From positions 32,001 through 96,000 of IMG/VR virus record IMGVR_UViG_3300028394_000045: 64,000 bases of DNA. One strand, written 5' to 3'. The position numbers and the translations under genes were made by a program. The notes under the pieces were generated by a model, which ran no database searches, was not told the DNA's origin, and saw nothing but the letters and a program-made list of their open reading frames with translations. Positions 2,788 to 42,390 of the stretch are shown in pieces; within the stretch, counting starts at the first letter, position 1, and each line of letters begins with the position of its first letter. The stretch comes from a virus.

Positions 2788-3545
2788 CCAATCACAAAGG
2801 TGATGGGCTGCGCTCCGTCGATGTACCTGCGAAGATCTTCGAGCAATAGATCTATCTGTGTTTGAGCTTCGGCTTTCATGGCAGTGCCGTTTAGGGTGCC
2901 GCCACCTTGTGGGCCAGCGATAGTACCAAATTTCTCACGTGCTTCGCCAATGATCATCTTGCAGCCAGCCACCATGTAATCTCGTATCCATTGCTGTATC
3001 TGATAGTCGCTCAACAGATTGATTTCGGGTTTGAGCTGATAACACCAGATCAACACATTCTCTCCGGTGTTTTTGGGATCACGGATCAGTTGCAGTTTTT
3101 TATTCACTGGATTCCATGTGTAGTTCATGAACCCACCGAACATCTTGGCCGCCAGTTCCACATACTGGCTGTAGAAATCGTATGTGGCCAGGCCACCTGC
3201 CACGTTGAAGTTCATGAGATACACATTGATCGACGCCTGTGCAAAAGGATCAAAGTTTGATGCGAAAGGACCAGTAGCATCACCAAATGTGCGACGGAAT
3301 ATCTGTCTCACACTTTGCACTTCTTGCGGCAGTGTGTAGATGTTGAGATCTCGGATCAACTCCATGAAGATGTAGGCTTCTTCATATGCAGCATTGGACC
3401 GCTGTCTGAAAACACCTATGGCTCGCTGATATGCTGCTTCATAGTGTTCAGGATCCAACTCAAGATCGATTATCTGCCCGCCCAAGGTTAGGCGAGTGTA
3501 ATCAATCAGGGCTTGCTTGAGTTGTGGTAGTGTGTTGTCAGACAT
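2784..3545 (-). CDS. gp13: Neck protein (gp13-like)
   Basis: LKQALIDY..LTLGGQIIDLELD at the N-terminus and GEAREKF..IAGPQGG.TLNG at the C-terminus; morphogenesis context. Confidence 0.8.
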   Translation of the reverse strand: MSDNTLPQLKQALIDYTRLTLGGQIIDLELDPEHYEAAYQRAIGVFRQRSNAAYEEAYIFMELIRDLNIYTLPQEVQSVRQIFRRTFGDATGPFASNFDPFAQASINVYLMNFNVAGGLATYDFYSQYVELAAKMFGGFMNYTWNPVNKKLQLIRDPKNTGENVLIWCYQLKPEINLLSDYQIQQWIRDYMVAGCKMIIGEAREKFGTIAGPQGGGTLNGTAMKAEAQTQIDLLLEDLRRYIDGAQPITFVIG

Positions 3546-3570
3546 AAGGGGGAACTCCGTTCCCCCTTAT

Positions 3571-4719
3571 TTACCAGCTTTTGAGCACTAGCAGATTCTC
3601 GCTGCTGCGACCATTAAACTGAGTCTCAGTGGTGGTCAAGTCTTTGAAAATCTTTCTAGCAGCAGGCTTGCCCGCAGCTTGTATGGCCTTGATGGTCTCT
3701 GCGGGTTTGCGCACGGTCTTCTGCTGTGTCTCGCTCACAGAGAACCCAATGATCGAGCTGCTCTTGATGGTGAAACTGCCAGCATGGCTGTCTGCTACCA
3801 CATGGATCAGTTTGCGCTTCTTGGTGTCGTACAACCAAGCTTCGCTCTTGTCTACCAAGGATGCAGCCGGCAATCCTTTCAGCTTGAGCTCTGCAAATTC
3901 CACTTGATGCTTGAACTTGGCTGCTTTTTTCTCAGGACTCACAGGCTTGACCTTGCGCGGTTTGCGTTCCACTTTCTTGATCTGCACGTATGCGCCGCAG
4001 TCAGAGATCACAGACTCGCAGAACTTCACGATGTTTCTCAACTGCACCTTGGTGAGATAAGAATAACCTTCAACCAACTGAGAGTCTTTGCCAGCCACAA
4101 CCAGCTCAAAGTGGGCCAGTCGTGTTTTCCAGATGTCTGCAATGTGATACACCATCTGTGGTGCCACATTCATGCCGCGGATCTGTGCGATGGGTTTCCA
4201 GTCTGCTGACATCTTGCAGCCGGCAGCCACAAAGTCGTCAAACATGCCTTCTAGTTCGCCGGCACAATCCTTCATCTTTTCTCGCAGTCGATCTTGGATG
4301 TTGGGCTTGGCCACTGCTTCGGGCTCTGCCACTTCTACAGCAGCCTGATCTTTGATGGCCAACAAGTCTGCGATGAGATTGTCCAGTTTGATCTGTTCTT
4401 GGTCAGTGAGCTCCAGTCCCATCATGCTCATGCGGCACAGCCAGCCTGTGGTCAGTCGCACTTGGCTGTCGGGCAAGGTGCGCATTTTTTTAGCGTCCTT
4501 GACTCGTTTGTGTGCATCCAAGTAGGCCACGATCATTTCCTTGGCTTCTTTCTTGCCGTAGAAATAGTTGTACCAACCAAACGCATTGCTCATGGCACTG
4601 ATGCGATTTCTGTCTTGTTCGGGTTGCACACGCCACTCGGGTTCGTTGCCAACATACTTGGTGTCGGGGCTGCGCGGGTTCATCGATTTCAGTGCGACTT
4701 TAGCTGCTAGGGTTGCCAT
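3571..4719 (-). CDS. Basic hypothetical protein, probably expressed early
   Basis: 382-aa ORF with AAGGA RBS and a near-consensus sigma70 promoter; Lys-rich C-terminal half. Confidence 0.75.
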   Translation of the reverse strand: MATLAAKVALKSMNPRSPDTKYVGNEPEWRVQPEQDRNRISAMSNAFGWYNYFYGKKEAKEMIVAYLDAHKRVKDAKKMRTLPDSQVRLTTGWLCRMSMMGLELTDQEQIKLDNLIADLLAIKDQAAVEVAEPEAVAKPNIQDRLREKMKDCAGELEGMFDDFVAAGCKMSADWKPIAQIRGMNVAPQMVYHIADIWKTRLAHFELVVAGKDSQLVEGYSYLTKVQLRNIVKFCESVISDCGAYVQIKKVERKPRKVKPVSPEKKAAKFKHQVEFAELKLKGLPAASLVDKSEAWLYDTKKRKLIHVVADSHAGSFTIKSSSIIGFSVSETQQKTVRKPAETIKAIQAAGKPAARKIFKDLTTTETQFNGRSSENLLVLKSW

Positions 4720-20731: not shown

Positions 20732-21562
20732 TTAGGATGTGACGCTGGCGATTTGAGCCAATTGCAGAGTACCATTTTGCGACTGAGCGCCGCCAATAAC
20801 TTCAGCACCAGACCATGTAACCGAACCTTCATCAGTGAAGAAGTTGGTAGGATAGAAGTTTTCTGCACTTTGGACATTGACACCCAAATTGCTGTTGCTA
20901 TAGTTGCCAACGGTCATGCCATTCCAGTCACGTACCCACTTGTTGGTGATATAACTGGCATACACAGCAGCACTATCGCCTACTGAATAACTAATACTCA
21001 TGTTGCCTGCAGACGGAGTTGCTGTGTTTGACAACACACATTGACCTACAGGATATACTGTACCATTACCGGCACCTACAGCCAATGCTGTGAATATTCT
21101 ACCTACTGCTGCTGTACCACTCAAGATTGTGGACCAATCACTTGTGCCCAAGGATACGATTTGATAACTTTGACCAACAATAAGACCGCTGCTGAGTGCA
21201 TAAGTTCCGCCGGTATAGGCTACCAGGAACTTGTGCGCACCTTTTTGGCGTATGATACGTCCGGTATAGCTGCTGGCCAATGAAAAAGTGTTTGACCCAT
21301 CTGCCAATAGAATATTGACCAATGCAGCAACTTCTGGATAGGTAGCACTGGCTGTGCTGGTCACCGGCGAACCGCCAACCACACCCAGATATTCAGTGTC
21401 ATTTAGAGTTTGAACTGGGGTGTTATAAGCAGGATTTGTCAATGCACTAAACGGTGGAAAACCTGCGTCAGTTAGAATGTTTTGATTGTAGCTGGTTGTT
21501 GAACCGGAAACACTTGTGCCTGAACCAGTGTTTGTTTTTTGAATTTTAAGAGCTCTTCCCAT
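20732..21562 (-). CDS. Probable virion structural protein; start revised to ATG 21562
   Basis: AAGGAG RBS 6 nt before ATG 21562 (MGRALKIQK); S/T/G-rich; late promoter upstream. Confidence 0.65.
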   Translation of the reverse strand: MGRALKIQKTNTGSGTSVSGSTTSYNQNILTDAGFPPFSALTNPAYNTPVQTLNDTEYLGVVGGSPVTSTASATYPEVAALVNILLADGSNTFSLASSYTGRIIRQKGAHKFLVAYTGGTYALSSGLIVGQSYQIVSLGTSDWSTILSGTAAVGRIFTALAVGAGNGTVYPVGQCVLSNTATPSAGNMSISYSVGDSAAVYASYITNKWVRDWNGMTVGNYSNSNLGVNVQSAENFYPTNFFTDEGSVTWSGAEVIGGAQSQNGTLQLAQIASVTS

Positions 21563-21579
21563 TTTTTTCTCCTTAAAGA

Positions 21580-21650
21580 AGCCCAATGTGGGTTCTAGCC
21601 ACTACGCAGTGGTTGCTGCATAAGACGCATTATCGCGTACATAGTTGACT
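21580..21650 (-). ncRNA. Candidate structured 5' leader (three hairpins plus a closing stem)
   Basis: Stems ACGC/GCGT, TATGCAG/CTGCGTA and GTGG/CCAC, closed by AGTCAA/TTGGGCT, between TAAATA and the RBS. Confidence 0.5.
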
Positions 21651-34951: not shown

Positions 34952-35296
34952 ATGGATTTATACACAATTTGGGCAGACAAACAAGGTGACATTTCAGACC
35001 TTGACTGGGTGAATGGAATGAAAAGTTTTTTTGATCATCTGATCAGTGAAGACCGCATGGTCACCTATCGTATCACCAGGTGCAAGATGGGCTTTCGCAG
35101 CATACCGGACATGCCAGAGTGGATGATAATCATGGAGTTTCGTAACATGGCTCAGATAGATCGTGCATTCAAGCGAGTGGCACCACTCAAAGGCGAACTT
35201 GAAGATAAACATCGCAGCTTCAATCAGTTTGTGTCGGGCAATATCCAGCATGCGCTGTTCAGAGATTGGCCAGATAATGACTTGGATGATCTATGA
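34952..35296 (+). CDS. DUF6614-like protein (probable dimeric alpha/beta barrel)
   Basis: MDLYTIWAD...YRITRCKMGF...PEW.I.MEF..MAQIDRAF. Confidence 0.5.
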   Translation: MDLYTIWADKQGDISDLDWVNGMKSFFDHLISEDRMVTYRITRCKMGFRSIPDMPEWMIIMEFRNMAQIDRAFKRVAPLKGELEDKHRSFNQFVSGNIQHALFRDWPDNDLDDL

Positions 35297-36345
35297 AAAA
35301 AATTGTATGTTCTCTCAGCGCAGATAGTGTAGGTTGTACTTTTATTGATTGGAGCATACATTTTCTAGCAGGAAAAAAACAGTATTACTCGTTTGCACAA
35401 CAACAATGGATTCCGTTGGTATTGAATCCTCTCACAGATTGCAATGCACACGGCCATGATAGAAATCACCCTGGCGGAATAGAAAATGTAACTACGATGT
35501 TGCAACAGGCAAAAAACATGCCCGATGATGGGTTGTATAGCATGTACCCATTTTCTGCAGAAACATCACATGTTCGTAAGAAACTAAAAATCAATTTTGA
35601 ACAAGCCGATGAGAAAGATTTTTCAGAAATAGAGCAAAAATGGCATACGGAAAACTACGCTAGGATATTTGATTGTTGTATCAATAACAATGCCAAGATA
35701 ATTTTTATACATGATAACAAATCTGTCAACTGGTATAAATTATTTGGCCATCAACGGATAAAATACAATGTACCTGAAGACGAACAAGCTGAAATAGACT
35801 ATAGAAAAAAAAGTTTTCATAAAAACTCAATAGATAAATGGAAAAATCTTGGATTAGAAAATATTTGGGATGTTAGAGAACGGCAAGCACTGGATGTAAG
35901 ATTACTTGATATGCATACTAATGAAGTCGCAGATAAATGTAATTTTTCAAAACCACACTTCAGAGCCAGCGTCAGCGACCTATGGCATCGTGGGATAGAA
36001 TTATTTCATCAGATCATGATGTACTTAGATATGCCCATTGTTCCGGATAGATTGGGTCAATGGATTCCTATATATCACGAATGGGCGCAGAAGCCATTGG
36101 CATTGATGAAATTTGGAGACGGGTTTGATGATACAATAAAATGTATAGTAAATGGATGGTATAAAGAACTACCAGAACTGTCATTTGATCAAGAAGTCAT
36201 AATACAACATGCTCTGATCTACAAACATAATCTCAATCTAAGAACGTGGCAACTAGAAAAGTTTCCAAGGAACACAATAGATCTACATCGATTGCTTGAG
36301 CCAAACATTCATACGCTTGTGCATACATATGAAGAACTTCGCTAG
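35293..36345 (+). CDS. Hypothetical protein, sulfotransferase-like family (paralogue of 44935..45816)
   Basis: GCTFIDW, AHGH, WDVRE and a C-terminal E..IQ..L......L..FP; AT-rich. Confidence 0.5.
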   Translation: MKKIVCSLSADSVGCTFIDWSIHFLAGKKQYYSFAQQQWIPLVLNPLTDCNAHGHDRNHPGGIENVTTMLQQAKNMPDDGLYSMYPFSAETSHVRKKLKINFEQADEKDFSEIEQKWHTENYARIFDCCINNNAKIIFIHDNKSVNWYKLFGHQRIKYNVPEDEQAEIDYRKKSFHKNSIDKWKNLGLENIWDVRERQALDVRLLDMHTNEVADKCNFSKPHFRASVSDLWHRGIELFHQIMMYLDMPIVPDRLGQWIPIYHEWAQKPLALMKFGDGFDDTIKCIVNGWYKELPELSFDQEVIIQHALIYKHNLNLRTWQLEKFPRNTIDLHRLLEPNIHTLVHTYEELR

Positions 36346-36724
36346 CGAAGTTCTATTGATATCGCTATCGCTCATCAATGTGTTTTTTGTTTCTTGACTT
36401 AGTATCATCTAGATACTGTGGTCATAATTCACCGTATGCACGGTGAATAAGCATCATCTGAGTGACAGCAGTCATCTTGGTTAATGAGATTGTGGTTTCC
36501 CACGCGGAGGCGGTTGACCGGTACCCCCTACTCAAGCTTCACATATCAACGGAACCCTAGTGACCCGATCAAGATCCAAGTCCTACAAGCATGGGGTGTA
36601 TCTTCTTCACAGAGCCCAAACCATTTGTTGCCTTAAGTTAGCAATTGCCTTTGACGCCCAAGTCCGGACCGGGTATCGCACCGTTCCTCAATGGGGTTGA
36701 GTCATATCACTCAACACAGAGTCG
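36333..36724 (-). ncRNA. Candidate large structured non-coding RNA (~390 nt) downstream of the GIY-YIG gene
   Basis: No ORF of 60 aa or more; at least nine stems, including GTTGAGT/ACTCAAC, GTGG-GAAA-CCAC, ATTCACCGT/ACGGTGAAT and a 22-bp palindrome. Confidence 0.6.
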
Positions 36725-36727
36725 TGA

Positions 36728-37156
36728 TTAAATTTTGTTTAGGATTTGGCGGCCATGTACCCTTACCTGTATATGGCCATTGTAATAATCTGCTGATTCC
36801 AATACCTGTCTACTGAACTGCTCGCGTGCCTCAATGTATGAGCATTCACTCTTGCTTGCACAGTAGTAAAGTATTTCTCTGGTGAAATTGTCGGTGCCTA
36901 GTTTTTCAATGTCTGCGGATAGTTCTGCGCTGGATCCATAATATTGTTGCCAATCTGAATCAATTTTGCTTCGTATGCGTTTTTTCTTTTTGATGCCGTT
37001 CTTTTGTTTGACCGTTTTGTATGTGGTTTTTGAAAACTTTGCCAGTTTTTTGCCTATGTATTTGCGTCCAGTGAGATTATTTGTGATCAAGTAAACAAAT
37101 CCCACACATGAGTCGGGCAAAGTCTCCACAGGGGTGTTTTGATATAGCCATGTCAT
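36728..37156 (-). CDS. Stand-alone GIY-YIG endonuclease (Seg/EndoII-like catalytic domain)
   Basis: GFVYLITNNLTGRKYIGKK, YYGSS, REIL, YIE and YYN motifs; Lys-rich insertion. Confidence 0.85.
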   Translation of the reverse strand: MTWLYQNTPVETLPDSCVGFVYLITNNLTGRKYIGKKLAKFSKTTYKTVKQKNGIKKKKRIRSKIDSDWQQYYGSSAELSADIEKLGTDNFTREILYYCASKSECSYIEAREQFSRQVLESADYYNGHIQVRVHGRQILNKI

Positions 37157-37213
37157 ATTGCAGTTTTGTTACTTGAGTCATGTAGTTATGCCTAATTGTG
37201 TTGCGTAATGATT

Positions 37214-38116
37214 TTATTGTTTAAGTTCTGCTATATATTGCCATTGATTTTTTGAGGTAGTAGTAATATTGTCGCTAGAGCAACTGCTCTTGCATATTGT
37301 GTTACATTCTGATGTATTCCATGATTTTTGAATGTCCTCAAAATCATTGTCAAATCCTATAAAATCTTTTTGTCTATCTCCAAGAATACAGCAAGGACTC
37401 AATCTGCCTTGCGCATCGATATATGCGCTTTGTTCAGACAATGCAAAACAATCAATTGGTCCTGTTTTTGGTTCAGGTATGGTCCAGGTTGTTGCACGTT
37501 TTAAATTATCGATCAATGGCCTATTGCTGATTTTGGCACGAAACCAAAAAAATCCCATGTCACGGGCTAGTTGTTCACACTGATGCACCTGGTGTTCATT
37601 GTGTTGATATACTAACATATCCCAGTGTGCTCGTCCGCCTGCATTGATATAAGTTTCAGCATTGGTCATGAGTTTGGTCCAATTTACATTTTTTCGATAT
37701 ATTGCATTGGTATTTTCTAAGCCATCAATACTGAATACCACATAATCCCGTTGCCTGTTCAGTATCGTTCCCAGAGTATTCCACCATCTAGCAGATTGTA
37801 ATGCTCCGTTTGTATTCATACCCAGCGTGATTTCTGGGTTGATAGATCGAAAGTATTGATATATGTCCAGAGTATGTTTGCCGGCCGCCGGGTCTCCATA
37901 CAAGCCGCACATGTACATCTTGTGTAGCTTGGCAATATGTGTGTTATCAAAATGTTGAATTATTTGGTCAATGGTCAGATGATGTTGAAAATTTTTATCA
38001 AAGTTGGGATCTAGTTCTCGAGAACACAACGCACATGCAGCCTGACACACATCTGTGGGTTCTAGATGTAATTCTTTGATGTCACGACGTTGCAGCACTG
38101 GTATAGTTATATTCAT
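37214..38116 (-). CDS. Radical SAM protein with C-terminal SPASM/twitch-like domain
   Basis: CQAACALC, GDP, TNG and FSIDG motifs; C-terminal YIDAQGRLSPCC...C...C. Confidence 0.88.
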   Translation of the reverse strand: MNITIPVLQRRDIKELHLEPTDVCQAACALCSRELDPNFDKNFQHHLTIDQIIQHFDNTHIAKLHKMYMCGLYGDPAAGKHTLDIYQYFRSINPEITLGMNTNGALQSARWWNTLGTILNRQRDYVVFSIDGLENTNAIYRKNVNWTKLMTNAETYINAGGRAHWDMLVYQHNEHQVHQCEQLARDMGFFWFRAKISNRPLIDNLKRATTWTIPEPKTGPIDCFALSEQSAYIDAQGRLSPCCILGDRQKDFIGFDNDFEDIQKSWNTSECNTICKSSCSSDNITTTSKNQWQYIAELKQ

Positions 38117-38120
38117 GTTG

Positions 38121-39182
38121 CTAATATAGTTGTAATTTTTTTAGTAGATCTTGATTTTCAAATAGCATGCCTAAATTATATCTATTTTTCTGCTGATTGT
38201 ATGCACTGATCCAGGTATGGTTATCAGCACGGCCAATGCTGGTGTAATCATCTCCGCGCCCAAAATGCACAACCTTGGTGGCAATGAGACCTAACTTGTT
38301 GCACCAATATTGTTGTTGATCCTGATACTTGGTCACATTATAATCAACAGGAAATGTATTGATAATATCTAGTGCCAAGCCGGCTCCTAGGCGATTGCAT
38401 ATATTCTCATCGTTGCTGATTTGCAATGGATCACTAGGTTTGTTCTTGCACATACGCACAGCTATTTTAGCGCATTGAACAGGAAAAGTCTTGCTTAAAC
38501 TAAAAGTAATTTGCTCTATGCACTCGGCACTGAGATCAATATCCACAGCATTATTGCTGTTAGGCAGATAGATAAAATCTACCAACAGCTTGATTCCTAT
38601 GCGATTGCACTCATCAACCAACCAATCAAAATTTTGATGTTTGTCTCCGGTAAGTGCAAACGGGTAACTACAAATACATATATCGTTGGGTTTTAAGTCG
38701 TCATCTTCGATAAACGCCCATGATATGCCCACACTGTTCCAGATGTCGATATGCCACCAGTAGTCGCCTTTGAAAATACGAAACCTGCGGTCTTTGTTCA
38801 CAAGATAGAAGTTGATAAAACTTTCTTGTGACCCGGCACTGAATCCCGTGTATCGAAACAAATCAAAATTGTGTAAGCGATATCGTGTGCCTCTGGAGAT
38901 CCAAGATTTAAATTGTTGTTCAAACTCTTGCACTACCCAGGGATTTACAAGATGCCGGTTAATGTTCTGATTCTGCACAAACTCCATCACCTCAGGATCT
39001 TTAATGCTGTTGCCGCTGCTGAATATGCCGTGAGTTCGCAGCCTCACATGTTCAAAACCACTGCTGAGGGGGTATGCCCAAATATACTCACCAGGCACAT
39101 CCAGCTGATTGGTAGCACCGGCCAAAGACAGTACCCAGGCTATCTGTTTTATTTGATTGATATCTGCTGTAGTAGTTGACAT
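38121..39182 (-). CDS. PLP-dependent fold-type I enzyme (aminotransferase-like)
   Basis: LLVDFIY (PLP Asp) and ITFSLSKTF (Schiff-base Lys). Confidence 0.7.
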   Translation of the reverse strand: MSTTTADINQIKQIAWVLSLAGATNQLDVPGEYIWAYPLSSGFEHVRLRTHGIFSSGNSIKDPEVMEFVQNQNINRHLVNPWVVQEFEQQFKSWISRGTRYRLHNFDLFRYTGFSAGSQESFINFYLVNKDRRFRIFKGDYWWHIDIWNSVGISWAFIEDDDLKPNDICICSYPFALTGDKHQNFDWLVDECNRIGIKLLVDFIYLPNSNNAVDIDLSAECIEQITFSLSKTFPVQCAKIAVRMCKNKPSDPLQISNDENICNRLGAGLALDIINTFPVDYNVTKYQDQQQYWCNKLGLIATKVVHFGRGDDYTSIGRADNHTWISAYNQQKNRYNLGMLFENQDLLKKLQLY

Positions 39183-39628
39183 GCTGTGATGTAATAATTA
39201 TAATCTTCTTGCCAGTGTGGGTCATTGTTGTTTTTGGTATGGCGAGTGTGCAATATCCATGTCAACACTGGCATAGTAAGATCCAACACAAAATCCCCAT
39301 TGGGGCCAAAAAACAAACAGCTAGGATACACAGCACCATCAACTGCACGAAACTCGCTATGCCATATTAGTTCTTCAAGATCATATCCATCTACTGTCAG
39401 TCGGGCAAGTTCAAAACTTCTATCACGTACAATTTGATTATTTTCAACCACTGTGTCATGTGGTTGCTTATCCCAATGTGTGATCACTATGGATACTGCA
39501 CCCTGGGTGGACGGAACATCAAAATCATATACTTCGAGCACCGTGCCGGAATACAATTCTTCATGATTGATAGAAATTTTGCATCGTGGCTGATCTATGA
39601 TGTTGATAAATTCAAGATGTAGTTTCAT
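39149..39628 (-). CDS. Hypothetical protein; start revised to MKLHLEF
   Basis: Overlap-coupled to both flanking PLP genes. Confidence 0.55.
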   Translation of the reverse strand: MKLHLEFINIIDQPRCKISINHEELYSGTVLEVYDFDVPSTQGAVSIVITHWDKQPHDTVVENNQIVRDRSFELARLTVDGYDLEELIWHSEFRAVDGAVYPSCLFFGPNGDFVLDLTMPVLTWILHTRHTKNNNDPHWQEDYNYYITACQLLQQISIK

Positions 39629-40643
39629 TTTGTAAGTGACTGAACAAGTCCCAGTGATTATATATTGCAGACAAACAAATTCTGTTTTGGAATTGACCAG
39701 CATCAAGATCCAGCTGGTACGTATGCAATAGACCACTGCGATTGTACTGGCTCCAGTCTGCATCGCCAATGGCAAATATAACAGATTGACTGGGAGTCAG
39801 ACCAAGATATCCGCATACTTGCTGTTGTTTTTCCTGATATAGTTTTGCAATGTAGTCACTGGAAAATTTTTGTATGATTTTTAACCCCACCCAGGCACTT
39901 AGGCTGTTATTGTAGTGAGTAGAGTGATGCAGCTTTTGCCCATCAAAAATATTTGGTTTAGTAAATCTCACACCGATACGCAGTCTTGCCACAGTAAACG
40001 CTTTGCTAAGACTGAAAGTCACTGTGTCAATGCAGTCTGCACTGAGATCTGCGCTGACGCCGCGACTGATAAAATAGTAGCAACAATCAACCAACACCGG
40101 TATGCCCAGTTGATTGCATTTCTCTAATACCTGATCAAAATTTTCTAATTGCGTACCGGTATCACAAAAAGGTAAACTCACTACCAGTGCGTCCCCGGCT
40201 GTTAACGGGTCAGCCTCGGATATCATACTCCATGGGGTATTATTACTGATCCAAGTTTTTAGATGATAAAAGTATTCGCCCACGAAGCATCGCATGCGTC
40301 TTGATCTATATCGATAATAAAAACTATCAAAACTCTGAGTAGTGCCGCTGCTGAAATCAGCCTGATATTGATCTAATCCAGTGATTTTGTTCACAGAATT
40401 TTGAGAGATCCATTTGGGCATGCTGTGAACAAAATCATTGAGATTTTGCGGACGATTCAATCCGTCTTGTAGTAGATCCTGGGAAAATATCTCTCTAATG
40501 TAATCACAAAATTCTGGTGGTTCTACAGCTCGTGACCCTTGCAACACAAATCTGACTTGATTTCTAGTGGAAAAAAAATCTGTTTGTTCACAGGCAGCAA
40601 TTGCCCAACTTAACTGTGTTGCTCGATCAAGCAATTTCTGCAT
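39612..40643 (-). CDS. PLP-dependent fold-type I enzyme (paralogue of 38121..39182)
   Basis: VLVDCCY and VTFSLSKAF..ARLRIG; start taken at MQKLLD. Confidence 0.72.
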   Translation of the reverse strand: MQKLLDRATQLSWAIAACEQTDFFSTRNQVRFVLQGSRAVEPPEFCDYIREIFSQDLLQDGLNRPQNLNDFVHSMPKWISQNSVNKITGLDQYQADFSSGTTQSFDSFYYRYRSRRMRCFVGEYFYHLKTWISNNTPWSMISEADPLTAGDALVVSLPFCDTGTQLENFDQVLEKCNQLGIPVLVDCCYYFISRGVSADLSADCIDTVTFSLSKAFTVARLRIGVRFTKPNIFDGQKLHHSTHYNNSLSAWVGLKIIQKFSSDYIAKLYQEKQQQVCGYLGLTPSQSVIFAIGDADWSQYNRSGLLHTYQLDLDAGQFQNRICLSAIYNHWDLFSHLQNETTS

Positions 40644-42390
40644 CCGTTGAATATGAAGTGAAGCCATTCTCTTTTATCACCTTGAGAATGTTCTCTACCC
40701 TGCTGGTCAGTTCGTCTCTATGACTCACAAGCCAAATGCTCTTGTGTCGTTCGCGACTCATCTTCTTTAACAGGGCCAGGGCATTCTCTACGCCTTGGGT
40801 GTCCAAGCCGGAGTCAATCATCTCGTCAATGAACAAGATGTTGATGGGTTCATACAAACTCTCCCACACATCGCGGAACGCCCAACTCATGCTGAGGATC
40901 AATCGGTTACGCTCACCTCGGCTCAAGTTGTCAAAGTCCAATTCACGACCTAGTTCTTCAATGCTCACTGTAAGATCGTTCTGGAACTTCACAGTATGTG
41001 GTAATCCGATACGATCAAGATAGTGTGTGAGTCTGCTGTTGAGATAACTCAAGTTTTGATCAATGATCTTCTTACGCACAAAACTGTCTTTGCTGGTGAG
41101 CAGTTTGAGCAAAAACTCTTGATGCTCTTGTAATCTAGTGTATTCGTTTAGCGTGTCATACGAAACTACTTGCAGGGCTTGATTCTGCATGTCTGCGATC
41201 TGTTCGCTGTAAGGATCAGTCTCTGCGGATCGTGTGACAAGATCCTTGTTTAGGGTATCCACAGTGTTCTTGTGATTCAGTGCCTGTTCGAGGCTGTCAT
41301 AGAACACCCGGGGTGCTTGCCCTAGTTCGCCAAGTTCTCGCAATCGATCTTGATGTTCGGATCGTTGCGTGTCGTTGGTCAGCACTTGCAATGAGATTTC
41401 TAGCAGAGTCTTTTCACGCTGTGCTTTCACAGTGTCAAGACTGTTGTCGTGTATGTCTGTGCCGCAGGCAAAACACTTGTGGCTGGCAATCTGCGTGAGA
41501 TCTTTTTCAATCTGAGCCATTTGCTTCAGCAGTTTGGTATCGTCGGCATCAATCTGCCGTATCCAACGATTGGCTTCGTCTATGGATTTTTTACGAGCAT
41601 GGTATGCGTCGAGATCTCTGTGTGCTTGTACCTCCGCTGCAATATCGATGTGTTCAAGGTCAGCAATACCTTGTGCTAGACCTTCAGTATCTTCTGTTTG
41701 TTTGCGTAGCCACAAGGTTCTGCGTTTCTCTAAACTGACAATCTGTTCTTCGATGCGTTTGTTGGCTTCTTGCACCGCACGGATACGCAGTTCTTCTGCT
41801 TGGATAGAATCTTTGGTTTGTCTGTTGAGTTCTTTGATACGATCGGCACGCTCACTCAGCAGCGTGATACCCAGCAGTTGTTCAATGATTGTGCGCTGTT
41901 CATTGGCCTTGAGACTCAAGAAAGGCGGTGTGTAAGTGTTCAGTGCTACAATATGCTGGAACATGTCATGGCTCATGCCCAACACACGCTCGATAGCTTC
42001 TTGTGTTTCTCTTGAATCACCTTGTGCTTCGTCCTGTGCTGCTTGATGCTCGTCGTTTACATAGAACTTGAGAACATTGGGTTTGCGACCGCGCTCAATT
42101 CGATAGTTCTGCCCGCCCACAGAGAAGTCCAGGCTCACAAGCATGTGCTTGGCATTGGTCTTGTTTACTAGATTGTCTTTACGAATGTTTGATAATGCTT
42201 GGCCATACAATGCATAGCTTAGTGCATTGATGATTGTGGTCTTGCCTGTGCCATTGCGAGATCCATCGCCTCCCATGTCCAAGTTTTCGCCCAGCACCAA
42301 GGTAAGGTCCGATCGATCAAAGTCAATGGCCTGCGTGGTATTGCCTACGCTCATGAAGTTTTTTACTGTGAGGTCACGAAGATGTATCAT
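40627..42390 (-). CDS. gp46: Recombination endonuclease ATPase subunit (gp46/SbcC/Rad50-like)
   Basis: KNFMSVG, Walker A NGTGKTT, Zn hook CFACG, signature LSRGE, Walker B LFIDE and VSH. Confidence 0.95.
   Translation of the reverse strand: MIHLRDLTVKNFMSVGNTTQAIDFDRSDLTLVLGENLDMGGDGSRNGTGKTTIINALSYALYGQALSNIRKDNLVNKTNAKHMLVSLDFSVGGQNYRIERGRKPNVLKFYVNDEHQAAQDEAQGDSRETQEAIERVLGMSHDMFQHIVALNTYTPPFLSLKANEQRTIIEQLLGITLLSERADRIKELNRQTKDSIQAEELRIRAVQEANKRIEEQIVSLEKRRTLWLRKQTEDTEGLAQGIADLEHIDIAAEVQAHRDLDAYHARKKSIDEANRWIRQIDADDTKLLKQMAQIEKDLTQIASHKCFACGTDIHDNSLDTVKAQREKTLLEISLQVLTNDTQRSEHQDRLRELGELGQAPRVFYDSLEQALNHKNTVDTLNKDLVTRSAETDPYSEQIADMQNQALQVVSYDTLNEYTRLQEHQEFLLKLLTSKDSFVRKKIIDQNLSYLNSRLTHYLDRIGLPHTVKFQNDLTVSIEELGRELDFDNLSRGERNRLILSMSWAFRDVWESLYEPINILFIDEMIDSGLDTQGVENALALLKKMSRERHKSIWLVSHRDELTSRVENILKVIKENGFTSYSTDAEIA

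What the first reader, a model, noticed from the sequence alone, without database searches (positions are those of the whole stretch)
36333..37156. Stand-alone GIY-YIG nuclease followed by a ~390-nt structured ncRNA: candidate nuclease-RNA system
Seen: the longest non-coding gap in this gene-dense window begins at the stop codon of a 142-aa GIY-YIG protein. On the same (minus) strand it folds into a chain of stems: GTTGAGT/ACTCAAC (36696-36715), TTGC/GCAA, GACTTG/CGGGTC, a junction GAG..GGGGG-[CGGT CA ACCG]-CCTCC-[GTGG GAAA CCAC]..CTC with a GNRA tetraloop, ATTCACCGT/ACGGTGAAT (36427-36448), AGTATC/GATACT (36401-36417) and ATTGAT/ATCAAT. AGATGA occurs three times. G-U pairs and the GAAA loop favour a minus-strand RNA. 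The protein is a catalytic domain only, with no NUMOD/HTH tail, but has a basic insertion (KTVKQKNGIKKKKRIRSK). Known: compact nucleases with a cis-linked structured RNA exist (IscB with HEARO/omega RNA, TnpB). I know of no such pairing for GIY-YIG, and stand-alone GIY-YIG domains such as T4 EndoII work without RNA. Inference: an RNP nuclease, possibly RNA-guided or RNA-regulated, or else a new phage ncRNA class.
Basis: partly seen in the sequence, partly recalled or inferred. Interest (0 to 1): 0.85.

Follow-up and report, generated by a model that had tools for sequence, protein, structure and literature searches.

The report
Twin-box phage RNA beside nuclease gene
The gap after the small nuclease gene holds a real, intricately folded non-coding RNA gene that is common in uncultured T4-like lake phages; its function is unknown, and nothing indicates that it guides or needs the nuclease next to it.

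Summary
Window 36333-36724 (minus strand) is non-coding and encodes a conserved RNA of about 390 nt.

- **Structure:** in 53 diverse homologues, 93% of cells in 79 modelled pairs are paired. Fifty pairs show compensatory changes, and a pseudoknot covaries.
- **Rfam:** no family matches the window's RNA. Its 3' domain is homologous to an uncatalogued extension of sister RNAs, whose 5' 140 nt is Rfam Polynucleobacter-1 (RF01718).
- **Twin boxes:** two 7-nt boxes (AGAUGAU here) vary widely, with 18 versions, yet stay identical to each other in 113 of 116 distinct RNAs.
- **Box partner:** I found no complementary sequence inside the RNA or in nearby DNA.

The nuclease-RNA reading is not supported.

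- More than 500 phage records carry the 142-aa GIY-YIG family, and none yielded this RNA by blastn.
- At least 15 contigs have the RNA without the gene, often after a PD-(D/E)XK nuclease instead.
- In other contigs 0.8-2 kb of genes separate the two.
- The gene-RNA adjacency was already noted for Polynucleobacter-1 in 2010.

This scan found the same RNA family earlier on other DNA. My test agrees with those reports. Function remains unknown.

The parts
36728..37156 (-). 142-aa stand-alone GIY-YIG protein gene (SegE_GIY-YIG / phrog_447 family). It is a neighbour of the RNA, not shown to be part of it.
   Evidence: Pfam PF19835, E 4e-33. phrog_447, E 6e-38. 39% identical to P-SSM2 PSSM2_218. 502 phage records hold homologues.
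36395..36724 (-). Conserved core of the structured RNA (class-1 twin-box RNA). It consists of a 5' multi-hairpin domain, a pseudoknotted core and the twin-box module.
   Evidence: Covariance model R1 scores 375 bits here. 79 pairs are 93.4% paired against 78.8% in shuffles, and 50 pairs have double changes.
36696..36715 (-). 5' hairpin GUUGAGU/ACUCAAC.
   Evidence: Coordinates. The stem sequence differs between relatives (GUUGGGC, GGCAAGC, GAUCC, UGGUCGAG and others) but stays complementary.
36628..36644 (-). Hairpin UUGC/GCAA with a conserved 9-nt loop, UAACUUAAG.
   Evidence: Loop residues are invariant in 29 close relatives. The stem pairs covary (helix 6).
36506..36557 (-). Most conserved core, GGGUUCCGUUGAU...GGGGGUACCGGUCAACCGCCUCC. 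GUUGA pairs with the UCAAC hairpin loop to form a pseudoknot.
   Evidence: Near-invariant block. The G-C/A-U switch at the GGGGG/CCUCC helix is (helix 14). Pseudoknot pair counts are A-U 80, U-A 30, G-C 3 and U-A 88, C-G 7.
36492..36503 (-). GNRA-capped hairpin GUGG-GAAA-CCAC.
   Evidence: All four pairs show double changes across relatives (helix 16).
36453..36459 (-). Twin box 1 (AGAUGAU), preceded by AUGAC-N7-ACUC.
36427..36448 (-). Central hairpin AUUCACCGU/ACGGUGAAU between the two boxes.
   Evidence: Five of nine pairs have compensatory changes (helix 17).
36404..36410 (-). Twin box 2 (AGAUGAU), preceded by AUGAC-N7-AUCU.
   Evidence: Identical to box 1 in 113 of 116 distinct RNAs, with 18 different 7-mers. 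On a tree the joint state changes as often as each box alone.
36355..36379 (-). 3' hairpin A (AUUGAU/AUCAAU) with a conserved GAGCG..AGCGA internal loop, placed after an A-rich linker.
   Evidence: In 24 of 27 relatives the minimum-energy fold (MFE) shows the hairpin, with different stem sequences.
36333..36354 (-). Terminal 22-nt palindromic hairpin. It looks like a terminator, overlaps the stop of the convergent + strand ORF (36343-36345) and is probably bidirectional.
   Evidence: Folds in 26 of 27 relatives with different stems. It has too few U residues to pass the terminator scan.

Best explanation
Window 36333-36724 (minus strand) is a gene for a large, stable non-coding RNA of uncultured T4-like freshwater phages.

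**Build.** The RNA is modular.
- The 5' domain differs between at least three architectures. The window has the version that is not in Rfam; the commonest sister version is Rfam Polynucleobacter-1.
- This domain is joined to a conserved pseudoknotted core and a 'twin-box' module.
- In the module, two copies of RUGRC-N7-AYCU are each followed by a 7-nt box, and the copies flank a hairpin.
- An A-rich linker and two 3' hairpins follow. The last hairpin looks like a terminator.

**Proposed mechanism (inferred).** The folded scaffold displays the two boxes unpaired. They act as sequence-specific recognition elements that engage two copies of one partner in trans, either a nucleic acid or a dimeric protein. 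The box sequence sets the specificity, which changes often between phage lineages.

**Relation to the nuclease.** The GIY-YIG gene is a conserved upstream neighbour at the end of the gp47-gp46 recombination-nuclease operon. The RNA may be made from the same transcript, but it neither guides nor needs that nuclease.

**Shown versus inferred.**
- Shown: the RNA structure, its homology, its modularity, the twin-box coupling, and its independence from the GIY-YIG gene.
- Inferred: that the boxes are unpaired and act in trans, and how the RNA is transcribed.
For: **Conservation.** The tract is 75-94% identical over its whole length in about 35 relatives. A model built from it finds weaker copies at the same position in nearly all other GIY-YIG loci.

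**Structure.**
- 93.4% of cells are paired, against 78.8% in shuffles.
- 50 of 79 pairs have double changes.
- The covariation score is 0.408, against 0.153 in shuffles (0 of 500 reach it) and 0.035-0.077 when partners are slid.
- The pseudoknot covaries.
- The 3' hairpins fold in nearly all of 27 relatives (24 and 26 by MFE), with different stems.

**Non-coding:**

**Modularity.** RF01718 scores 75-120 bits on 14 sister loci, and the R1 3'-domain hit follows directly. The window and divergent class-1 loci have no Rfam hit.

**Twin boxes.**
- Identical in 113 of 116 distinct RNAs, with 18 different 7-mers.
- The two strongest mutual-information pairs of the domain are box-to-box identity pairs, and three more rank in the top 40.
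- On a tree built without the box columns, box 1 changes 45 times, box 2 changes 43 times and the joint state 45 times.
- The consensus fold leaves box 1 unpaired. Only a weak, G-U-rich helix touches box 2.
- There is no internal partner.

**Independence from GIY-YIG:**
Against:
- No sigma-70-like promoter lies directly upstream, and no canonical U-tract terminator was found. An independent transcript is therefore unproven.
- No partner for the boxes was found within about 3-10 kb. Nothing stood out among 46 complementary sites in the 151-kb record.
- Both boxes lie within 60 nt, so recombination would move them together. This inflates the count of concerted changes, but it does not explain why the two boxes are identical.
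- The alignment used for the pair counts was fitted to the model's structure.
- 84 of 101 informative contigs keep the GIY-YIG gene upstream. In many of the rest another small nuclease takes its place. A functional link with a nuclease therefore cannot be ruled out.
Confidence: 0.6

Rival explanations
1. Nuclease-RNA system. The RNA binds the adjacent small nuclease and guides or regulates its cleavage, with the variable twin boxes serving as guide-like specificity elements.
For: - The adjacency is strong: 84 of 101 contigs found through the RNA alone have the GIY-YIG homologue upstream, including homologues only 37-53% identical.
- Where the GIY-YIG gene is absent, a different small nuclease often sits directly before the RNA (PDDEXK_15, RusA-like).
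- The boxes are short, variable and flanked by a conserved scaffold.
Against: - The protein family is found in 502 phage records. Blastn with the window tract and with a sister RNA matched no phage record.
- Melnitz, C48C1, S-SRM01 and P-SSM2 leave 0-150 nt after the gene.
- At least 15 contigs have the RNA without the gene, some with no nuclease nearby (L134, L097, L089, L113).
- Whole genes are inserted between gene and RNA in at least 9 of 80 loci.
- The basic insertion in the protein is also present in P-SSM2, where no RNA follows the gene.
- Two identical internal 7-mers are unlike any known guide RNA.
Confidence: 0.07
2. Homing hot spot. The adjacency exists because free-standing endonuclease genes (GIY-YIG, PD-(D/E)XK, a full-length SegE-like gene) repeatedly settle next to a highly conserved RNA gene whose DNA offers a good target. 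By my recollection, T4 segB in the tRNA gene cluster is a similar case. The RNA's own function is unrelated to the nucleases.
For: - Three unrelated or differently built nuclease genes occupy the slot just upstream of the RNA: the 142-aa GIY-YIG, PDDEXK_15, and a 357-aa SegE-type protein with NUMOD3 in L155.
- The RNA core is far more conserved than its surroundings.
- Gene content around the RNA is fluid, but the RNA's borders are respected.
Against: - The 142-aa protein lacks the DNA-binding tail of known Seg homing enzymes.
- In cyanophages it is a widely conserved gene at another locus, near nrdA/nrdB. That pattern looks more like a core gene than a mobile one.
- No cleavage data exist.
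Confidence: 0.15
3. Cis-acting 3' UTR. The structure is not a separate gene. It is a long 3' untranslated element that terminates, stabilises or regulates the convergent transcripts meeting here.
For: - The conserved sequence starts 4 nt after the GIY-YIG stop codon, and no promoter-like site lies directly upstream.
- The tract ends in a palindromic hairpin that overlaps the stop of the convergent gene.
- Weinberg et al. scored Polynucleobacter-1 as possibly cis-regulatory.
Against: - A 330-nt pseudoknotted scaffold with invariant loops and co-evolving twin boxes is far more than termination or stability requires.
- The RNA is kept intact when the upstream gene is replaced, when other genes are inserted before it, or when flanking genes run in other orientations.
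Confidence: 0.12
4. DNA-level element. The boxes and palindromes are protein-binding repeats (iterons) of an origin, packaging site or nicking site, not features of an RNA.
For: - Identity coupling of two direct repeats is what iterons bound by one co-evolving protein would show.
- A perfect 22-bp palindrome lies where transcription converges.
- Another first-stage note proposed this reading (e1-5704664).
Against: - Dozens of compensatory base-pair changes keep helices intact. Many conserved pairs are G-U, which would be C-A on the other strand.
- The model matches one strand only.
- The boxes lie inside this strand-specific scaffold.
Confidence: 0.04

Closest known systems
Polynucleobacter-1 RNA motif (Rfam RF01718; Weinberg et al. 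2010, Genome Biol 11:R31, PMC2864571)
   Same: - Sister RNAs at the same genomic position, downstream of the same GIY-YIG gene family, match RF01718 at 75-120 bits.
- They continue into a 3' domain homologous to that of the window's RNA.
- The 2010 supplement already states that most examples lie downstream of GOS11034 genes resembling P-SSM2 PSSM2_218. I show that this protein is a homologue of the window's GIY-YIG protein.
- Both come from fresh-water or estuary samples, and function is unknown for both.
   Different: - The window's RNA does not match RF01718 at E <= 10. Its 5' domain has different helices.
- The Rfam model covers 141 nt only. It holds neither the pseudoknotted core nor the twin boxes.
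- The 2010 authors found no example in a sequenced phage and did not name the neighbouring gene as a nuclease.
Omega RNAs, the guide RNAs of IscB (Rfam family HEARO) and of TnpB
   Same: A structured RNA of a few hundred nt encoded next to a compact nuclease gene.
   Different: - No HEARO or other Rfam hit.
- The nuclease here is GIY-YIG, not RuvC/HNH.
- There is no transposon end and no terminal guide segment.
- The RNA and the gene occur apart.
GOLLD and ROOL, large ornate RNAs of phages and lake or rumen metagenomes
   Same: Large, intricately folded, phage-borne RNA of unknown function, found in lake metagenomes, with a modular and variable 5' part. The variable 5' half of GOLLD is from my own knowledge.
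   Different: - No match to either Rfam family.
- This RNA is shorter (330-390 nt against roughly 580-800 nt).
- It is not next to tRNA genes: none were found in the window.
- Twin boxes are, to my knowledge, not described for either.
T4 segB, a GIY-YIG homing endonuclease gene inside the tRNA gene cluster (from my own knowledge)
   Same: A GIY-YIG family gene lying beside conserved structured-RNA genes in a T4-like phage, without the RNA being a cofactor.
   Different: SegB has a DNA-binding tail and proven homing activity. The 142-aa protein here is a catalytic domain only, and no activity is known for it.

Membership tests
Polynucleobacter-1 RNA (RF01718) | Covariance-model score at or above the gathering score of 37 bits | tested here: not met
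   No RF01718 hit in window 35900-37500 at E <= 10, nor in six divergent class-1 loci at E <= 0.1. 14 sister loci score 75-120 bits.
Polynucleobacter-1 RNA (RF01718) | Location downstream of a GOS11034 / PSSM2_218-like gene (Weinberg 2010 supplement) | tested here: met
   Text of the supplement. PSSM2_218 is 39% identical to the window's GIY-YIG protein, E 2e-20.
Twin-box RNA (working name for the wider family, not published) | Homologous pseudoknotted core (CCGUUGN...GGUACCGGNCAACCGCCUC) followed by two RUGRC-N7-AYCU modules with identical 7-nt boxes flanking a hairpin | tested here: met
   Window features are at 36404-36557. R1 links class-1 and class-2 RNAs. Box identity holds in 113 of 116 distinct RNAs.
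Omega RNAs of IscB (Rfam HEARO) and TnpB | Rfam HEARO match; adjacent RuvC-type nuclease; guide at the RNA terminus next to a transposon end | tested here: not met
   No Rfam hit. The neighbouring protein is GIY-YIG only. The variable segments are internal twin 7-mers.
GOLLD / ROOL | Match to the Rfam covariance models | tested here: not met
   The only gathering-level hit in the 64-kb window is freshwater-2 at 21560-21640. Nothing appears at E <= 10 in the region.
Group I intron carrying a GIY-YIG homing endonuclease ORF | Match to the Rfam group I intron family (Intron_gpI) and a host gene split into two exons | tested here: not met
   No Rfam hit. The upstream radical-SAM ORF ends with its own stop, and the downstream gene is convergent.
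tRNA / tmRNA | ARAGORN detection | tested here: not met
   No tRNA or tmRNA gene in the whole window.
Box C/D RNA (kink-turn) as a reading of the AGAUGA repeats | Conserved RUGAUGA and CUGA boxes with invariant sheared G-A pairs | tested here: not met
   The boxes vary freely (GGAUAAU, ACGAAAU, ACAGAAU, AUAGCAG and others), so the G-A positions are not kept.
SegE_GIY-YIG (PF19835) / phrog_447 (the protein) | Profile match above the curated cut-off over the whole domain | tested here: met
   114.7 bits against a cut-off of 25, residues 3-129. phrog_447, E 6e-38. No sequence match to any solved structure.

The most novel reading that the evidence does not exclude
The twin-box RNA is a programmable recognition RNA. 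Its two identical, fast-evolving 7-nt boxes base-pair with two copies of one target, bringing them together or sequestering them. The target could be a repeated site on phage or host nucleic acid. The RNA would act with the recombination and repair nucleases encoded just upstream (gp47/gp46 plus a small GIY-YIG or PD-(D/E)XK nuclease). That would be a new kind of RNA-specified nucleic-acid transaction in T4-like phages.
Probability: 0.07. Interest if true: 0.9.

Novelty: new variant of a known kind. Interest (0 to 1): 0.6.

Why it matters
Large, ornate non-coding RNAs of unknown function are rare, and several have turned out to do unexpected things. This one is abundant in uncultured T4-like lake phages.

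- **Gap in the catalogue.** Only a 141-nt piece of a sister version is in Rfam. The conserved core, the modular exchange of 5' domains and the window's own 5' domain are not catalogued there, and I found no paper that describes them.
- **An unusual constraint.** The twin boxes are two short segments that change dozens of times in evolution but always together and to the same sequence. This points to a specificity-setting interaction with a paired or dimeric partner. It also gives a direct experimental handle: mutate one box, then both.
- **A corrected hypothesis.** The tempting 'RNA-guided GIY-YIG nuclease' idea has no support. This saves effort and places the known Polynucleobacter-1 motif in its true, phage-borne and much larger context.

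Tried and rejected
- **Rfam.** The whole window at gathering score, the region at E <= 10, and six divergent loci at E <= 0.1 gave nothing for this RNA.
- **ARAGORN.** No tRNA or tmRNA.
- **Single-sequence folding.** Not significant on either strand: z = -1.44 and -1.07.
- **Blastn against 50,697 phage records.** No match with the window tract or with a class-2 RNA.
- **Genome-contig scan with a 14-base pattern.** It returned only chance hits in high-GC bacteria, and none matched the RNA profile by nhmmer. I could not confirm bacterial copies myself.
- **Coding or pseudogene remnant,** for example a decayed DNA-binding tail of the nuclease. Rejected: no periodicity, and gaps are mostly not multiples of three.
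- **Internal partner for the boxes.**
  - No consistent complementary 7-mer.
  - No column covaries with the box columns except the other box.
  - A box pairs no better with its own RNA than foreign boxes do, or than it does with foreign RNAs.
- **The weak 5'-leader/box-2 helix** proposed by RNAalifold. It is G-U rich, competes with the covarying 5' hairpin and has no fixed register in rare-box sequences. I do not count it.
- **Local trans partner.** No enrichment of anti-box sites at any position in 164 loci.
- **Own 151-kb record.** 46 anti-box sites, nothing distinctive. One module-like copy lies inside a 5046-aa ORF and looks like chance.
- **Mini-ORF starting at the AUG inside box 1.** The frame and the AUG are not conserved.
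- **Palindromic loops (CUUAAG, GGUACC) as dimerisation sites.** CUUAAG is not kept in divergent members, and GGUACC lies within helices.
- **T4 EndoII as a close relative of the protein.** No sequence match to any solved structure.
Full report
**What is there**

The window is part of a 151.6-kb IMG/VR virus record. CheckV rates it 44% complete, and relatives reach 345 kb. It is T4-like: gp46, gp47 and baseplate genes lie around the site.

The ORF 36728-37156(-) encodes a 142-aa protein that matches Pfam SegE_GIY-YIG over its whole length (E 4e-33) and phrog_447. It has no extra domain. From 4 nt after its stop codon to the stop of the convergent + strand ORF (36345) there is no gene.

The tract does not fold unusually well as a single sequence (z = -1.44). 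It matches no Rfam family even at E <= 10, and it holds no tRNA or tmRNA.

**It is a real structured RNA**

Eighty IMG/VR loci encoding relatives of the protein were fetched.
- About 35 carry the tract at 75-94% identity over its full length.
- A covariance model built from 29 of them (R1) finds weaker but significant copies at the same position in nearly all the others.
- A 21-nt pattern from the core found 119 more loci.

On an alignment of 53 diverse members, a consensus fold of 79 pairs gave these results:

| Measure | Observed | Control |
|---|---|---|
| Cells forming a standard pair | 93.4% | 78.8% in shuffles |
| Pairs with changes on both sides | 50 of 79 | about 34 in shuffles |
| Covariation score | 0.408 | 0.153 in shuffles (0 of 500 reach it); 0.035-0.077 with partners slid |

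The alignment was fitted to the model, which favours the structure. The compensatory changes are nevertheless plain in an unfitted MAFFT alignment too.

Further points:
- A pseudoknot between GUUGA and the UCAAC loop of the core hairpin covaries (A-U 80, U-A 30, G-C 3).
- Two 3' hairpins follow an A-rich linker. By MFE they fold in 24 and 26 of 27 relatives, with different stem sequences.
- Many conserved pairs are G-U, and the model scores on the minus strand only. The RNA is therefore read from the minus strand.
- The tract is not coding: there is no three-base periodicity, and 229 of 258 gap runs are not multiples of three.

**Family and architecture**

The RNA comes in at least three builds that share the 3' part.
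- **Class 1** is the window's build. It has a 5' domain of several hairpins that Rfam does not know.
- **Class 2** has a 5' 140 nt that matches Rfam Polynucleobacter-1 (RF01718) at 75-120 bits in 14 of 20 loci tested. The R1 3'-domain hit follows directly after it.
- **Class 3** (L015, L018, L029, L033) has yet another, longer 5' part. A twin-box module was seen by eye in L033.

The lead to RF01718 came from earlier reports of this scan on other DNA. I tested it here and it holds.

Polynucleobacter-1 is listed once in the main text of Weinberg et al. 2010, as a fresh-water/estuary and Burkholderiales motif of unknown role. I found no later paper that mentions it.

**The twin boxes**

Before reading the earlier notes I saw that two 7-nt segments change together. 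In the window both read AGAUGAU. They lie at 36453-36459 and 36404-36410, each after RUGRC-N7-AYCU, on either side of the central hairpin.
- Among 116 distinct RNAs, 113 have identical boxes, using 18 different 7-mers such as GGAUAAU, AGAUGAA, ACGAAAU, ACAGAAU and AUAGCAG.
- The strongest corrected mutual-information pairs in the whole domain are box-to-box identity pairs, not base pairs.
- On a tree built without the box columns, box 1 changes at least 45 times, box 2 at least 43 times and the joint state 45 times. Recombination would carry both boxes together and so inflates these counts. It cannot create the identity.

I looked for a partner and found none:
- no complementary 7-mer at a consistent place in the RNA;
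- no advantage of a box for its own RNA in duplex energy;
- no enrichment of complementary sites in 1.3 Mb of flanking DNA;
- nothing distinctive among 46 sites in the phage record.

The boxes are thus most simply read as displayed recognition elements for a trans partner that comes in two copies. This is an inference.

**Relation to the nuclease**

The adjacency is real.
- Of 101 informative loci found through the RNA alone, 84 have the GIY-YIG homologue upstream. Some of these homologues are only 37-53% identical.
- It is also not new. The 2010 supplement says most Polynucleobacter-1 RNAs lie downstream of GOS11034 genes resembling P-SSM2 PSSM2_218. PSSM2_218 is 39% identical to the window's protein.

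The two are separable.
- Homologues of the protein occur in 502 phage records. Blastn found the RNA in no phage record.
- In Melnitz, C48C1, S-SRM01 and P-SSM2 the next gene follows within 0-150 nt.
- At least 15 contigs have a full-length RNA (77-303 bits) with no GIY-YIG gene within 2.5-12 kb.
- In at least 9 of 80 loci, 0.8-1.9 kb of other genes lie between the two. These include a homologue of the window's convergent 350-aa ORF.

Where the GIY-YIG gene is absent, the gene before the RNA is often a 170-aa PDDEXK_15 (RusA-like) nuclease that follows gp47-gp46. In one locus it is a 357-aa SegE-type protein with NUMOD3. In others it is unrelated, such as a PNP_UDP protein.

The recurrence of small nucleases is notable. 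Three explanations are possible:
- old synteny at the end of the gp46 operon;
- endonuclease genes homing next to a conserved RNA gene;
- a functional link, less likely.

I cannot separate these with the tools at hand.

**Verdict**

- The RNA-guided or RNA-regulated nuclease reading is unsupported. The fallback, a new phage ncRNA, is right in substance.
- The RNA is an undescribed, larger and modular relative of the little-studied Polynucleobacter-1 motif.
- The same RNA family was found before by this scan on other genomes. My independent tests agree with those reports.

Noticed in passing
window 21560-21640 (-): A full-length match to Rfam freshwater-2 RNA (RF02980): 67.8 bits against a gathering score of 49.9. 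This is a second catalogued but uncharacterised RNA motif in the same phage.
   Followed up: no
L195:9825-10343, L101:2614-3126 and equivalents in L160, L140, L157, L109, L096, L177: In phages that lack the GIY-YIG gene, a 170-aa PDDEXK_15 / RusA-like nuclease gene lies directly before the RNA, after gp47-gp46. No homologue exists in the window's 151-kb record or in the 80 GIY-YIG loci. Two unrelated small nucleases therefore alternate in this slot.
   Followed up: partly
L040:3438-4427 versus window 35293-36345 (+): In L040 a homologue of the 350-aa ORF that converges on the RNA in the window sits on the RNA's strand, between the GIY-YIG gene and the RNA. Genes are shuffled around the RNA but its borders stay intact. 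The ORF has no Pfam or PHROG match.
   Followed up: partly
L015, L018, L029 (about 3430-3900) and L033: A third RNA architecture lies downstream of the same GIY-YIG gene, with a different and longer 5' part. In three of these loci a small Cys-rich ORF lies between the gene and the RNA. Neither R1 nor Rfam matched these loci. A twin-box module (ACAUGAA twice) was seen by eye in L033.
   Followed up: no
L155:2526-3599: A 357-aa SegE-type GIY-YIG protein with a NUMOD3 motif, a classical free-standing homing-endonuclease build, lies about 450 nt upstream of a class-1 RNA.
   Followed up: no
G000:C1:97142-97165 (outside the window, about 1.1 kb past its end): A sequence fitting the module pattern (ATGGC-N8-ATCT-AGATGAT-G) lies inside a 5046-aa ORF. 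It is probably chance.
   Followed up: partly
window 37214-38116 (-) and 38121-40667 (-): A radical-SAM gene (Pfam E 2e-7) and two paralogous ORFs of about 350 aa without Pfam matches lie between gp46 and the GIY-YIG gene. They look like accessory metabolic genes inserted into a core T4-like operon.
   Followed up: no
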